NCBI GenBank assembly: GCA_964016885.1
Contig: OZ024742.1
Location: forward strand, 351,354,001 to 351,418,000
DNA length: 64,000 nucleotides
Direction: 5' to 3'
From: Eledone cirrhosa
Lineage: Eukaryota
Under the pieces are notes generated by a model. That model was not told the origin of the DNA, did not search any database, and saw nothing but the letters and a program-made list of their open reading frames with translations. Each line of letters starts with the position of its first letter. The stretch's first letter is position 1. A program made the position numbers and the translations under genes. Of the stretch, positions 2,295 to 63,242 are shown piece by piece.

Positions 2295-3004
2295 AATGAT
2301 TGATGCCGACACATTTCGTACACGATTACGTTGGTTGATATAGATAAGCATGCACTATATAGTAACAACAAAGCAAACAACACATTACAACGAAGAAATA
2401 TATTAGCCTAAAATCGTCTTTACCTTCCGGACACTATTTAACTGATATATCACTCGTCACTATAATATATATCATAATTGAACTGCATTGTTTCTTGTTG
2501 GATTTCATTTATTTTTCACATACAACAGGACACATATACACACATGCATACGTACACACACATACACGCGTACACATATATACATATTTTGTGGGGTACC
2601 AGTATAAATAACTAAAAAAATATATTTACGCAATGAATGACTCAACGCGGTATGTTTCCAGTTCCGTACATATTCTGAAGATAACCATGTGTTAATGAGG
2701 AACAACTGCTTCAACTTTCGAATCTAATATTTTCTGTGAGCTGTTATGCATATATTTTCTGTTTTATCATATATCTGGAAATTTATCGATATATATACAT
2801 ATAATTTTATCGATATATTTAGGTTTATATATATATATATATATATATATATATATATATATATATACAATATATATATATATACAATATATATATATAT
2901 ATATATATATATATATATATATATATATATATATATATATATATATATATATATACACATTTATATAATATATAAGATCAAAAGATGGTTAAAAGAGTTC
3001 CATG

Positions 3005-3075
3005 TATTTTATTATGCGCATTTCAAAAACAAATATCATCATGCAATAATATTTGTGTTTTCATCAGATAAAATA
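3005..3075 (-). ncRNA. Type I hammerhead ribozyme
   Basis: Minus strand reads TATTTTAT CTGATGA [stem II] GAAA TGCGCA TA ATAAAATA. Confidence 0.8.
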
Positions 3076-3189
3076 GGAAGACATGATAGGAAGGTTAAAA
3101 AACACTTGTGAATAGTGCAGTTTTGAATCAACATTGATTCAACACTGCACTATTCACAAGTGTTTTTTAAACTTCCTATCATGTCTTCC

Positions 3190-3260
3190 TATTTTATCTG
3201 ATGAAAACACAAATATTATTTCATGATGATATTTGATTTTGAAATGCGCATAATAAAATA
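3190..3260 (+). ncRNA. Type I hammerhead ribozyme
   Basis: Stem I TATTTTAT/ATAAAATA, core CTGATGA (3198-3204), stem II CAAATATTAT/ATGATATTTG, GAAA (3241), palindromic stem III TGCGCA and AUA cleavage triplet. Confidence 0.8.
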
Positions 3261-3423
3261 CATGGAACTCTTTTAACCATCTTTTGATCTTATATATTAT
3301 GTATACTCCAGTCCTACAAACTGTAGAGTGCTTCTTATCCGATATCTGCATTGCTTTATTGTACTACAATAAAACTCTCCTCCTACATATACATTTATAT
3401 ATATATATATATATATAATAAAA

Positions 3424-59725: not shown

Positions 59726-59741
59726 ATATATATATATATAT

Positions 59742-61858
59742 AAAATCAGGTGGCGAGCATTCCACTTTGATAAATCTAATATAAATGAAAATGTCTCGGA
59801 CTTAAACAAAGTTTTCAAATCCAAAAGAAATCCACCCCCCAACAAACTTTTATCTGACTTTGAAAACGATATAATTTCTATCATACAAGGAGTCAAATTT
59901 AAGAGAAACTTCAAAGACCAGGAATATCTGAAAGGCATTAGGGATAATATTGAGAACTTGGAGAAAACTGAGAAGATCTTGGTAAAATCTGACAAGACCA
60001 ACAACCTCTATGGAGTGCAGAAAGACATGTATAATGGCCTCATACTAAAAGAACTGAGGAAAAAGTACAAGGTAACAGATAAGGCCGAGCTACAGAAAAT
60101 GAATGTTGAGGCATCTTGTATAATGCACGAGTTGGAAATCGAGAACAGAACACAACCTTTCGTGCCCAGGAAACCGAAGATCAATATGAAAGATCATAAG
60201 AGAAATTTCGAGAATGACTTGCCAGTCAGATTGATTGCACCATCAAAATCGGACCTGGGTAAACTAAGCAAAAACATTCTTGACAGGGTGATACAGCAAA
60301 TTAAAAACTTGGGTTGTTTACCTAACCTGAGCTTGTGGAAGGGAACTGGTGAGGTTGTTGAGTGGTTTAAGCAAATTAAATATAACAATAATAATAAGTT
60401 TATTCAACTTGATATTGCTAACTATTATTCTTCCATTACCCCTAATCTACTAAATAAGGCACTAAATTACGCATTCAAACATACAGACCTAACTAGCAAT
60501 GAAATGCACATTATATTATCGGCTAGGAAAACATTGATAGAATTTAATGACCAACTATGGACCCGAGCAGATAGAGATAACAATTTTGACATTACTATGG
60601 GATCATCCGACTCAGCTCAGGTAACTGACCTTGTGGGCTTATTTTTAATCAATTCGCTGCATAGGAAAATACCTGGTACTACCGGAGGTTTATATAGAGA
60701 TGACATGCTTTTACTTATTGATAATAATAACTCTGAACTAAATAGAAAAAGAAAACAAATTACACAATTGTTTAATCACTTTAATCTAAAAATAGAAATT
60801 GAGAATAGCCATAGAATAGTCAACTTCCTAGATATAACATTAAATCTCAACACATGTCTTCACTATCCATTTCACAAATTGAATGAAAACTTAAACTATG
60901 TCAGCTTTAACTCTAACCACCCCAAATCCGTTAAAAACACTATAGTAAACTCTGTTCAATCACGTATCTCTAGAATCTCATCTAATAAAAAGATTTTCGA
61001 CGAAAAAGCCCATTATTACAATGAAGCGTTAGCTAGAGCAGGATATAGTGATAAAATTATGTACATAGATAATGATAAACAAATTAAACAAAATAACAAC
61101 TGTTTTAATTATGGCCACAACCTTAACAACTATAATAGAAAGCATTACAATAATTCCAAAAGCCATAAAAGAAATAGAACTAGGAATATAATATGGTTTG
61201 CCCCCCCCCCCCCCTTCTCACTAAACATTAAAACCCACATTGCTAAACAATTTTTTAAAGCTCTCGATAATCGCTTCCCGAGAACACATAGGTATCACTC
61301 AATTTTCAATAGACATACTATAAAATAACCTACTCATCCACCAAAAATTTAGCGCAAAATATTAATAGAATAAATAACAGGAACTTAAAACCTAGCGATA
61401 ATAGCATAAATAATATACAAGTTAACAAATGTAACTGTAGAGATAGATCTAAATGTCCGTTAAATAACAACTGCTTAGTTAAAAATATAATATACAACTG
61501 TAATGTTAAAACGGACGTTAATTCTTTTAACTACGTTGGTTCTACATCGACGGAATTTAAACTTCGCTATAACAACCACAAGAATTCTTTCACAGATCCA
61601 TCCCAAAAATCTTCAACAGCACTATCAGGCGTACTCTGGCAACTTAGGCATGATAACGTTAGATATTCGACGACTTGGAATATAGTTTCAAGGGGGATTC
61701 CTTTTAATTCATCCTCTGAGACATGTGACCTCTGTGCGGAGGAGATATTCTTTATACTAAAATCTAAAAATTCCCTTAATCTACGGACAAATTTATTCAG
61801 TTGCTGCAGACATAGATTGAACTCAACGTTTAAATATAAATTTAAATTTAAAATGTAA
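59742..61858 (+). pseudogene. Naiad-like PLE RT + C-terminal GIY-YIG endonuclease, near-intact (5' truncated, one frameshift at ~61325)
   Basis: KIRWRAF, SDKTNN, KDHK, PVRLI.P, FIQLDIANYY, ITMGS, GLYRDD, VNFLD, SNHP. After the shift: CNC..CPL..CL..IIY..YVGST..FKLRYNNH..CDLC..E..LN..CRH, stop at 61858. Confidence 0.93.
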
Positions 61859-63176
61859 TTATGTTTGTTTTGATTTGATTTGTAATTATTTATGAAACTA
61901 GCCGATAAATCTTTCGATTTCTTCTTTTTATTAAAACATTCTTTTTAAACATTCTTCATGAATAATTAAACTACCCTAAAAGCTGATGCTCCAAATATAT
62001 CGAATTAAATTTTAAACTATATAAACTTCTATATTATATATAAGAACATATGTCGACCAAATGGGTATCCTAAACTTTTGGAATGATTTCTGCTAGACAG
62101 GATTTGGTAAACAATTTTTGTTTTATCTGTTTCGACTCTGATGCTTATGATGATCTTGGCAATATATTGTCAATTAACTTTGAAAGGCTGATCTCTGTGT
62201 TTTATTTTTATTTGTATTATTTTTTAATATTATTTTTTAATATTTTTTAATATTTTGTAATATTTTTTATTTTTAATATTAAATGTTTTAGTTTTTCTGT
62301 TTATTTATTTATTTATTTTCTTGTCTCTGATGTTTTTATTTTTATTTTTATTTTTATTTTTATTTTTATTAATATATTGAAATCTGTTCTCTATTTCTGC
62401 TTGATCGACAATCAGCTAGAATAAAGACAAGAATAGTATTGTTAAAATTAATATAGACTCTATATATATATGTGTATATATACACACATATATGTATACT
62501 TGAATTTTTATAGCACAATGAGAATGTTTTCGTGTGAATTGGGAGTTTGTTTATAATTATGATATAAACATATGAATTTTTAAAAACTAGACATAAGATC
62601 ATTACTTTTCACACATTATAGATACATGTCTCATTCATGAATACTGGTACTTACATTATAATGCCTGTTTTATACGAACTAATATTTTCTACGGATAAAA
62701 CATAGCGGTTTTAAATTCTGCATCGTTTGTGTCTGGTTATGTTTCATTTTTTCTTTTTCATTTTCTCTTTTTTTCTCTCTATATAACGGCTATTTTCTCT
62801 CTTAACTACATACATCTCTCTTTACATTAATACTAGAGCTAAACAAATAAATAAATAAATGAATAAATGTATCAACCGATACTCAACTTCCTAATTTCTC
62901 TATCTATCTCTATCTATCTCTTTCTTTTTTTTTTTCCTCTCTCTATATATATTTCTCTCTGTTTCTTTACATGGAGTTCTTCTCTTTATCTATCTTTCTA
63001 TATCCCTCTATTTAGTCACATGCATTTCTTCTTTTTCTTCGTTTCTCTTTCTTTCTCTCTTTATCTCTTTCTTTTTACAACTGTCCTCAATATTTTTTAC
63101 TATCAAATCAACCTCCCAAATGCAAGGTGATTGAAAGGTATGTCGTATCTATTTATTTATAAGACTGTTTATATTG

Positions 63177-63242
63177 TATTTTGTCTGAAGATGGCATAAC
63201 ATATTGTTAATATGATATCCCTGAAATATATATAACGAAATA
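63177..63242 (+). ncRNA. Type I hammerhead ribozyme (PLE 3' end)
   Basis: TATTTTGT CTGAAGA [stem II] GAAA TATATA TA ACGAAATA. Confidence 0.65.

What the first reader, a model, noticed from the sequence alone, without database searches (positions are those of the whole stretch)
2968..63242. Extreme ribozyme density: ~49 hammerhead motifs from more than 10 families in 64 kb
Seen by eye: 25 in the array plus about 24 others (3005, 3190, 3519, 3676, 3938, 9571, 10093, 16430, 17328, 18502, 24281, 25760, 32390, 32873, 33391, 33517, 33883, 33933, 37812, 38108, 39210, 57597, 57841, 63177), on both strands and almost all within or beside (TA)n. Inference: a PLE/retrozyme ecosystem has colonised TA microsatellites. 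Any host transcript crossing this region would face many potential self-cleavage sites.
Basis: partly seen in the sequence, partly recalled or inferred. Interest (0 to 1): 0.7.

Follow-up and report, generated by a model that had tools for sequence, protein, structure and literature searches.

The report
Hammerhead-rich genome from Penelope jumping genes
The self-cutting RNA motifs (hammerheads) in this stretch are real and sit at the ends of Penelope-type jumping genes and their small parasites inserted in TA repeats, but apart from one 25-copy array the stretch is near the norm for a genome estimated to carry some 300,000 to 400,000 of them, which its genes likely tolerate.

Summary
Observation largely confirmed; 'extreme' is not. 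Nine are decayed. Shuffles give about 0.1. The 49 come from about 19 insertions, and 25 of them from one two-armed 310-bp retrozyme array. Fifty-one evenly placed 10-kb genome samples hold 12.4 per 100 kb (about 3.7e5 genome-wide, CI 2.5-5.1e5). Outside the array the window is only about twice that average. The coding partners carry Hydra-clade Penelope-like motifs. Insertions end in (TA)n and are often two-armed, one arm at a long fixed end and the other at a short one (24 of 26), as expected from Penelope's two reverse-transcription start sites. Eighteen myosin gene spans hold 22 sense and 26 antisense motifs, so there is no sign that host transcripts are harmed. One autonomous family spread with a non-canonical A4 core (17,527 versus 179 copies). 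The scan noted the 310-bp array family before on other DNA. Cleavage is untested.

The parts
45491..53032 (.). Two-armed array of a 310-bp non-coding unit with 25 type I hammerheads: about 12.6 units on the - strand and 11.8 on the + strand, diverging from 49388 and ending in (TA)n on both sides
   Evidence: one substitution among 23 complete units
49408..49466 (+). Representative array hammerhead: C3 at 49423, predicted cut after 49453; 6-bp helix I plus bulge and a 13-bp outer stem, U.U-based helix II, palindromic ACGCGU helix III (dimer type)
   Evidence: (z -4.64)
2962..3303 (.). Two-armed insertion with complete hammerheads at C3 3067 (-) and 3198 (+); arms end 58 and 144 nt past the cut site
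3501..3744 (.). Two-armed insertion of the A4 family; both arms (C3 3564 -, 3681 +) also carry G12A, so both are decayed
3925..3975 (-). Hammerhead-like motif (C3 3967, helix I not closed) at the 3' side of a GC-rich canonical PLE
5463..7265 (-). Broken ORF pieces of a GC-rich canonical PLE (DKG motif, RT, GIY-YIG-type end)
9281..10235 (.). Two-armed retrozyme-like element with complete hammerheads at C3 9607 (-) and 10099 (+), same architecture as the array's
16415..24346 (.). Large two-armed Hydra-type insertion: hammerheads at C3 16474 (-) and 24287 (+), ORF fragments at 20575-21355, and degenerate TA/CA tracts in both arms
17328..17374 (-). U4C-core hammerhead (C3 17370) of a family with 3,797 C4 vs 52 non-C copies
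18440..18837 (.). Palindromic insertion with a long-helix-II motif (C3 18643, -) whose helix II base is mismatched
25756..25830 (+). Decayed motif (C3 25764, helix I broken)
32211..33025 (+). Direct dimer with complete long-helix-II hammerheads at C3 32395 and 32878
33385..33425 (+). Decayed relative of the 3967 motif (C3 33391)
33516..33587 (+). A4-core hammerhead with intact helices (C3 33522)
33862..34002 (.). Small two-armed insertion: complete motif at C3 33926 (-), decayed motif at 33938 (+)
37812..37869 (-). Complete hammerhead (C3 37865)
38007..38212 (-). A4-family element end with intact helices (C3 38153)
39202..39260 (-). Near-intact motif (C3 39245, one helix III mismatch), downstream of a Hydra-type endonuclease fragment at 39606-40019 (-)
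57598..57700 (+). Decayed long-helix-II motif (C3 57604)
57841..57952 (-). Complete long-helix-II hammerhead (C3 57948), downstream of a 5'-truncated Hydra-type ORF at 58593-59695 (-)
59658..61855 (+). Near full-length Hydra-type PLE ORF (RWR, DKT, YRDD, CxCx5C, YVG, CxxC, CxH), broken by a frame change near 61322
63177..63242 (+). Complete hammerhead (C3 63185), 140 nt before (TA)n; likely the 3' end of the PLE at 59658

Best explanation
The motifs are type I hammerhead folds at the 3' ends of Hydra-type Penelope-like retroelements and of small non-coding retrozymes that likely borrow the same enzyme, and about 19 separate insertions into (TA)n account for all 49. Mechanism (inferred): the element's GIY-YIG nuclease nicks both strands of a (TA)n tract, and each 3' end primes reverse transcription. 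One cDNA starts at the family's outer start site and the other at its inner site, and the two are joined head to head where they stop. This leaves two diverging arms with at least one hammerhead each, which doubles the count per event. For the 310-nt retrozyme the template is likely one circular RNA (or one long multimer) copied many times in both directions, which gives 25 near-identical motifs in one event. The PLE hammerheads are likely weak or protein-gated passengers that insertion does not need. That would explain why A4- and C4-core families spread and why introns hold sense-strand copies without visible loss. Shown here: motifs, counts, neighbouring ORFs, arm geometry, fixed ends, shared private variants, no strand bias. 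Inferred: double priming, circular template, low activity in pre-mRNA.
For: (1) Hydra diagnostics RWR, DKT, CxCx5C, CxxC, CxH with a C-terminal nuclease in window ORFs and in L102/L106, matching the clade description in PMC8557442. Its supplement lists Hydra-1_Obim from Octopus with (TA)n preference. (2) The A4 motif flanks RT+EN ORFs in most of 20 fetched loci, including a 645-aa open frame between two direct copies in L102. (3) Directional TA link: 56/73 downstream vs 11/73 upstream. (4) Fixed, bimodal ends per family, for example 49-55 vs 139-163 nt, 23-35 vs 113-136 nt and 44-58 vs 136-144 nt. Two-armed insertions pair one long with one short end in 11 of 11 arrays and 13 of 15 A4-family insertions, P=5e-6 against 50:50. 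PMC11167929 shows a purified PLE protein cutting and extending both strands, starting at two internal sites that define the genomic tail, and inserting equally well with a dead hammerhead. (5) Both arms share private variants: a 2-nt deletion in one array and an insertion plus substitutions in another; five listed U4C-family pairs share the rare non-C base; G12A is in both arms at 3564/3681 although non-G12 is about 2% genome-wide. (6) The family has 4,177 exact 43-mer and 16,608 exact 27-mer matches. Among first-listed loci most are minus-then-plus and none converge. (7) Myosin spans: 22 sense vs 26 antisense.
Against: No RNA data: no RNA holder was listed and cleavage was not tested. No autonomous element sharing the 310-bp unit was found in 1.48 Mb of held sequence, so the partner enzyme is inferred from footprints. 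Two of 15 A4 pairs break the long/short rule. In vitro, PMC11167929 saw no difference in start site between strands, so the strict long-plus-short pairing is not explained by that paper. Some arrays are mixed inside or show a 7-unit periodicity of variants (C1:45.28 Mb, C1:43.59 Mb), which a single monomer circle does not give. Shared variants in inverted arms could also come from gene conversion. Clade assignment rests on motifs, not on a tree. The intron test has only 48 motifs in one gene family and would miss a bias under about two-fold.
Confidence: 0.85

Rival explanations
1. Same elements and same enzyme, but the array was copied from a long uncut multimeric transcript of an older genomic array (twin priming on a linear RNA), with no circle involved.
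For: PMC11167929 found unprocessed RNA to be the dominant insertion substrate. Some arrays are mixed inside. Both fixed ends lie about 120-170 nt past the predicted cut site, not at it.
Against: It needs a 7.5-kb transcript that survives 25 dimer-competent hammerheads. Several arrays are uniform for private variants in every unit (86A>G in 13 of 13 units; the 2-nt deletion in 20 of 20 units over both arms), as one circle would give. A homogenised source array would give the same.
Confidence: 0.35
2. The array grew locally at the DNA level (unequal crossover or fold-back from one or two inserted units), as proposed for vertebrate retrozymes, or it is an assembly artefact.
For: The preprint 10.64898/2026.07.22.740005 proposes local amplification by unequal crossover. 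One array repeats two variants at a 7-unit spacing. Perfect palindromes are hard to assemble (general knowledge).
Against: Dispersed arrays on different contigs share the same two ends and the same diverging layout with variable inner joints. The two outer flanks differ. The unit is held by six public runs from four studies, although no contig spans the array, so its length here is not independently confirmed.
Confidence: 0.1
3. The window is a selected 'ribozyme minefield' that terminates or processes a host transcript.
For: Density is 40 per 64 kb against about 8 expected, on both strands.
Against: Outside one young insertion the density is about twice the mean. Nine of 24 dispersed motifs are decaying. 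All belong to genome-wide repeat families. No host exon was seen in 146 ORFs.
Confidence: 0.03
4. The motifs are chance matches in AT-rich repetitive DNA.
For: Rfam finds none at gathering score. Free folding does not give the hammerhead for two short-helix examples (38153, 24287).
Against: 15 observed vs about 0.1 in shuffles; compensatory changes across families; fixed position before element ends.
Confidence: 0.01

Closest known systems
Hydra clade of Penelope-like elements (Craig et al. 2021, PMC8557442; abstract, Introduction, passages and supplement rows read), including Hydra-1_Obim of Octopus bimaculoides
   Same: RT then C-terminal GIY-YIG; RW[KR], DKT, CxCx5C, CxxC, CxH; hammerheads near the 3' end; (TA)n targets; inverted 5'-truncated copies; a tail at one end.
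   Different: Tails here are about 70-90 nt in the PLE families (30-40 bp reported for PLEs in general); helix II is often very long; two families have fixed non-canonical cores (A4, C4); there are many co-existing families at high copy number.
Metazoan non-LTR retrozymes (Cervera and de la Pena 2020, PMC7229834, passages and sections 15 and 17 read, supplement unreadable; Li, Clavereau and Pollet 2026, 10.64898/2026.07.22.740005, parts 1-3 of 5 read)
   Same: About 300-bp low-GC non-coding tandem unit, one type I hammerhead per unit, weak palindromic helix III, U.U at the base of helix II as in axolotl HHR_Amex2, dimers to multimers, co-occurrence with PLEs.
   Different: The arrays here are two diverging arms with two fixed ends in (TA)n. 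The word 'inverted' does not occur in the main text of PMC7229834, and the parts of the preprint read describe only head-to-tail repeats. Circular RNA is not shown here.
PLE minimal hammerheads (Cervera and de la Pena 2014, PMC4209133, parts 1-2 of 4 read)
   Same: Many families per genome, mostly single truncated copies, opposite-strand pairs 100-700 bp apart, palindromic helix III, and the U3-A8 covariant (also seen here).
   Different: No zero-loop minimal motifs passed my scan (0 in the window and 710 kb). The estimated total (3-4e5) exceeds the counts in the papers read (about 2,000-9,000 minimal motifs; 126,247 in axolotl), but my descriptor is looser than theirs.
Anolis Poseidon PAc in vitro system (Frangieh et al. 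2024, PMC11167929, parts 1-2 of 4 read)
   Same: Both strands of AT-rich DNA cut and extended, two internal RT start sites equal to the tail, hammerhead dispensable for insertion and inactive without protein.
   Different: Different clade. That paper saw no strand difference in start site, whereas genomic pairs here are long-plus-short in 24 of 26.
Natural core variants of the hammerhead (Perreault et al. 2011, PMC3088659, passages and section 8 read)
   Same: U4C is a known natural variant with reduced in vitro activity; U3-A8 and U10.1.U11.1 are known.
   Different: 'U4A' has 0 occurrences in that main text (figures not seen). Here A4 is fixed in a family of at least 17,527 copies.

Membership tests
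Type I hammerhead ribozyme | Core C3-U4-G5-A6-N7-G8-A9, G12-A13-A14-A15, U16-H17 | tested here: met
   37 of 49 motifs; 3 more differ only at position 4; 9 are decayed
Type I hammerhead ribozyme | Three helices with helix I open-ended, above chance and with covariation | tested here: met
   40 of 49 pass; shuffles about 0.1; 10 of 16 pairs change on both sides across three families
Type I hammerhead ribozyme | Site-specific self-cleavage after H17 | not testable with these tools
   needs in vitro transcription or cyclic-phosphate sequencing
Type I hammerhead ribozyme (A4 family at 33522, 38153) | U at core position 4 | tested here: not met
   17,527 A vs 179 non-A; it is built like a hammerhead, but its activity is unknown
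Hydra-clade PLE | RT followed by a C-terminal GIY-YIG nuclease | tested here: met
   59658-61855 aligns end to end with 759-774-aa relatives; Pfam GIY-YIG E=4e-4, just under cut-off, at 58593-59051
Hydra-clade PLE | RWK-like motif, DKG changed to DKT, CxCx5C linker, CxxC and CxH in the nuclease | tested here: met
   RWR, DKT, CNCRDRSKC, CDLC and CRH found against the description; absence of CCHH judged by eye only
Hydra-clade PLE | (TA)n insertion, hammerhead near the 3' end, inverted truncated copy, tail | tested here: met
Hydra-clade PLE | Phylogenetic placement of the RT among Hydra references | not tested
Naiad/Chlamys PLE | N-terminal nuclease and no canonical hammerhead | tested here: not met
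   the nuclease is C-terminal and hammerheads are present
Metazoan non-LTR retrozyme (310-bp array) | Short non-coding tandem unit with a type I hammerhead in every unit | tested here: met
   310 bp, about 34% GC, 25 motifs; no ORF of 110 aa within the array
Metazoan non-LTR retrozyme (310-bp array) | Dispersed, multi-locus, recently mobile | tested here: met
   16,608 exact 27-mer matches; 98.7-100% identity across 13 examined stretches
Metazoan non-LTR retrozyme (310-bp array) | Expressed as unit-length linear and circular RNA | not testable with these tools
   no RNA run listed
Non-circularly permuted (type SGC) hammerhead | Blocks in S-G-C order | tested here: inconclusive
   0 in the window and 0 in 710 kb with a strict scan that recovered only 23 type I motifs there, so sensitivity is low

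The most novel reading that the evidence does not exclude
This genome carries more hammerheads than any count in the papers read (about 3-4e5, one per 7-10 kb), and its long genes are transcribed through them because PLE hammerheads are off unless the element's own protein switches them on. Its most successful autonomous family has fixed a U4A core, while the retrozymes keep working cores (including the U3-A8 swap) because they must make circles. A PLE protein dimer then copies one circle in both directions from two different start sites, one per target strand.
Probability: 0.3. Interest if true: 0.75.

Novelty: new variant of a known kind. Interest (0 to 1): 0.5.

Why it matters
The parts are known: Hydra PLEs with hammerheads in (TA)n are on record for Octopus, and tandem retrozymes are known from coral to axolotl. 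Three things go beyond the papers read. (1) Scale: an estimated 3-4e5 complete-looking hammerheads, with sense-strand copies in 8 of 18 tested gene spans and no strand bias. This makes the open question of what PLE hammerheads do in vivo testable in one animal by cyclic-phosphate sequencing. (2) A natural knock-down: a 17,500-copy autonomous family with A at core position 4. If it is inactive, it is in vivo support for the in vitro result that PLE insertion does not need cleavage. If it is active, it is a new natural core variant. (3) Retrozyme arrays with PLE insertion footprints and a strict long-plus-short pairing of ends. This is structural evidence for the proposed but unshown PLE-driven retrozyme cycle; the scan had noted it before on other DNA. 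The window itself is not a special locus.

Tried and rejected
(1) Rfam as the detector: 0 at gathering score, and the E-value list is swamped by TA-driven microRNA false hits. (2) My first scanner, which required a 10.1-11.1 pair, missed the whole array; it was replaced. (3) repeat finder was swamped by microsatellites; replaced by masked self-BLAST. (4) A DNA search of the own genome with the 310-bp unit returned nothing because common words are skipped; patterns were used instead. (5) Naiad, my first guess, was rejected on domain order. (6) Zero-loop minimal hammerheads: none passed. (7) Non-circular permutations, a lead from earlier notes: none with a low-sensitivity scan; two SCG alternatives at 24287/16474 are weaker readings of type I motifs. 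(8) An autonomous partner sharing the 310-bp unit: not found in 1.48 Mb held; only sister non-coding families. (9) Expression: no RNA holder listed. Contigs from four runs of unrecorded kind show the unit but cannot tell a circle from tandem DNA; the A>G at 49438 in one run is not taken as editing. (10) A G12-mutant subfamily: 369 non-G copies look like background. (11) Host exons in the window: none in 146 ORFs, a weak test. (12) Rows left out: two stretches from a doubtful 314-kb myosin span (30 kb, 0 motifs) were kept out of the intron tally; one sample stretch did not exist; arrays with one arm, a gap at the end or cut by the locus edge (3 of 14) were left out of the 11-of-11 count; A4 loci without two resolved diverging arms (5 of 20: L098, L102, L112, L116, L117) were left out of the 13-of-15 count.
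Full report
What was checked. The window lies at G000:C3:351,354,001-351,418,000 of a 3.0-Gb animal genome. The best named relatives of its main reverse transcriptase are from Argonauta, so it is probably an octopod; I did not pursue the source. It is about 33% GC with 172 (TA)5+ runs (269 per 100 kb), no more than the genome samples hold (277 per 100 kb).

The motifs are real. A type I hammerhead scanner that allows a 10.1-11.1 mismatch, one mismatch in helix II and a long helix II finds 37 canonical-core motifs and 3 with a changed position 4. 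Twenty-five are the array. Outside it, 12 plus 3 are seen against shuffle means of 0.08 and 0.04 (100 shuffles, maximum 1 each). The array motif folds in a long hairpin (z -4.64). An 8-sequence alignment of three families with the same architecture shows two-sided changes at 10 of 16 pairs, with slid controls far lower. Against this: Rfam gives nothing at gathering score, and unconstrained folding does not give the hammerhead for two short-helix examples. Complete motifs fall in 10 families in the window and 32 in all 125 hits clustered. By self-BLAST and by eye, the 49 motifs come from about 19 insertions.

The density is a property of the genome. Fifty-one 10-kb stretches at evenly chosen positions on 19 large contigs hold 52 canonical and 11 U4-variant motifs, with shuffle means of 1.0 and 0.6. 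That is 12.4 per 100 kb, or about 3.7e5 in the genome (bootstrap 2.5-5.1e5; canonical only 3.1e5, 1.9-4.3e5). A further 7 with the U3-A8 core swap occur in the same 510 kb (shuffle 0.5), none in the window. The flanking 200 kb hold 19 plus 3. The window outside the array has 15 in 56 kb where 7 are expected (bootstrap P about 0.04). Only the array makes it extreme. For scale, the highest count in the papers read is 126,247 in the axolotl, whose genome is 28 Gb. My descriptor is looser than the published ones, so the comparison is rough.

What carries them. The window holds pieces of at least five Penelope-like elements. Four are of one type: RT followed by a GIY-YIG nuclease, with RWR, DKT, CxCx5C, CxxC and CxH motifs spread over the pieces. 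These are the features given for the Hydra clade, which has hammerheads and inserts in (TA)n (PMC8557442); that paper's supplement lists one Hydra family from Octopus bimaculoides. The fifth (5463-7265) is GC-rich with DKG and has many RT plus GIY-YIG relatives in corals and other animals, so it is a canonical PLE. Motifs run into (TA)n on their 3' side: 56 of 73 lie within 200 nt downstream, 11 of 73 upstream, and 20% of random positions do. Many insertions are two diverging arms, the known PLE layout with an inverted truncated copy and a tail at one end.

Two fixed ends. Within a family the distance from cut site to TA is bimodal. In two-armed insertions one arm takes the long end and the other the short end in 11 of 11 resolved arrays and 13 of 15 resolved A4-family insertions; P=5e-6 against independent 50:50 choice. 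Frangieh et al. showed that a purified PLE protein cuts and extends both strands of AT-rich DNA, starts at two internal sites that match the genomic tail, inserts equally well when the hammerhead is dead, and that this hammerhead cuts only with protein present (PMC11167929). I infer double target-primed reverse transcription, one start site per strand. That paper saw no strand difference in start site, so the strict pairing is an addition that needs testing.

The array. It is 12.6 units on the minus strand and 11.8 on the plus strand, joined at 49388, with one substitution in 23 complete units. The family has 4,177 exact copies of the 43-nt motif and 16,608 of a 27-mer. In the first 100 matches, 9 of 16 loci are minus-then-plus and none converge. 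Array-private variants are shared by both arms, as are rare core bases in five listed pairs of the C4 family and G12A at 3564/3681. This points to one template molecule, or to later conversion. Both ends lie 120-170 nt past the predicted cut site, so a cut linear monomer cannot be the template of a 12-unit arm; a circle or an uncut multimer must be. Uniform private variants favour a circle; mixed arrays and one 7-unit periodicity do not. Cervera and de la Pena name PLEs as the likely mobiliser. Li et al. give phylogenetic support and propose local growth by unequal crossover. Earlier notes of this scan reached the same reading on other copies; I had tested it independently before that look-up. 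Sister families keep the unit's 3' part at 68-80% identity while carrying other hammerheads, some with the U3-A8 swap. This suggests that the 3' module is what the RT recognises and that retrozyme cores stay under selection (inference).

Core variants. The family at 33522 and 38153 has A at position 4 in 17,527 copies and any other base in 179. It flanks Hydra-type ORFs, one with a 645-aa open frame, and it is young: 46 of 61 copies are within one change of the commonest copy over 68 nt, in a set partly pre-selected by the exact pattern. The family at 17370 has C4 in 3,797 copies against 52. U4C is a known natural, weakened variant (PMC3088659). I found no report of a natural U4A: that paper's main text has no such term, and a search for hammerhead + U4A + catalytic core listed two papers that look unrelated (listings only). 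That U4 changes lower activity in minimal hammerheads is recalled, not checked.

Host transcripts. Eighteen spans between collinear myosin-head exons (516 kb) hold 48 motifs, 9.3 per 100 kb, 22 sense and 26 antisense (P=0.67); 8 spans hold a sense motif. Shuffles gave 1-3. One intronic array has 1 sense and 6 antisense units, and one sense dimer exists, which is too few to judge. So long genes here normally cross such motifs, and strong selection against them is not visible. This fits the low activity reported for PLE hammerheads (PMC4209133). No host exon was recognised in the window (0 of 146 ORFs).

In print? Searches. 'hammerhead ribozymes' + cephalopod + genome gave 0 papers, and hammerhead + octopus + Penelope gave only PMC8557442 as relevant (listings). 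The library lacks most subscription journals. The supplement of PMC7229834 could not be read and the preprint's supplements are closed; either may list cephalopod counts or inverted arrays. Also consulted: PMC6155905 (passages) and PMC10085705 (passages).

Verdict. The parts are of known kinds. The scale, the A4 family and the two-end rule are what merit follow-up. Interest 0.5.

Noticed in passing
   Followed up: partly
   Followed up: partly
window:31362-31963: A 165-bp direct repeat pair next to a core-like sequence at 31528 (-) with a good helix II but no closing helix I.
   Followed up: no
window:3852-7300: A GC-rich (49-60%) canonical PLE in a 33% GC genome, with strong strand skew; best relatives are 60-65% identical over part of the RT. 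Horizontal transfer is possible but was not tested.
   Followed up: partly
window:18975-23790: Two kilobase-long degenerate TA/CA tracts that are inverted copies of each other, inside the arms of one 8-kb Hydra-type insertion; the element seems to have carried a microsatellite tract in its 3' region.
   Followed up: partly
window:57790-63400: Two different Hydra-type families sit back to back, meeting near a short TA run at 59727-59742.
   Followed up: partly
window:1557-1752, 2108-2300, 8420-8541, 10342-10744, 40797-41009, 63874-64000: At least seven copies of a roughly 190-bp SINE-like repeat at 83-93% identity; its tRNA-derived nature is recalled, not tested.
   Followed up: no
window:55165-55389, 44229-45019, 27176-27521 with 54667-55014: Other palindromic or dispersed TA-flanked repeats with no type I hammerhead by my scan; their families are unidentified.
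   Followed up: no
L041:5750-7480; L110:1280-1500; L097:673-950; L015:6781-7067; L091:2947-3150: Sister families of the 310-bp retrozyme share its 3' part and ends but carry different hammerheads, some with the U3-A8 swap.
   Followed up: partly
L072 (G000:C1:43.587-43.594 Mb): A 308-bp variant array in which two substitutions recur exactly 7 units apart while a third does not.
   Followed up: partly
L116, L117 (G000:C3:139.28-139.30 Mb): A local cluster of the A4 family in which several copies carry C at position 4, spaced 3.7-5.4 kb apart; probably a segmental repeat.
   Followed up: no
L147 and L149: Retrozyme arrays inside myosin introns: one with 1 sense and 6 antisense units, one with a sense-strand dimer 467 bp apart.
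   Followed up: partly
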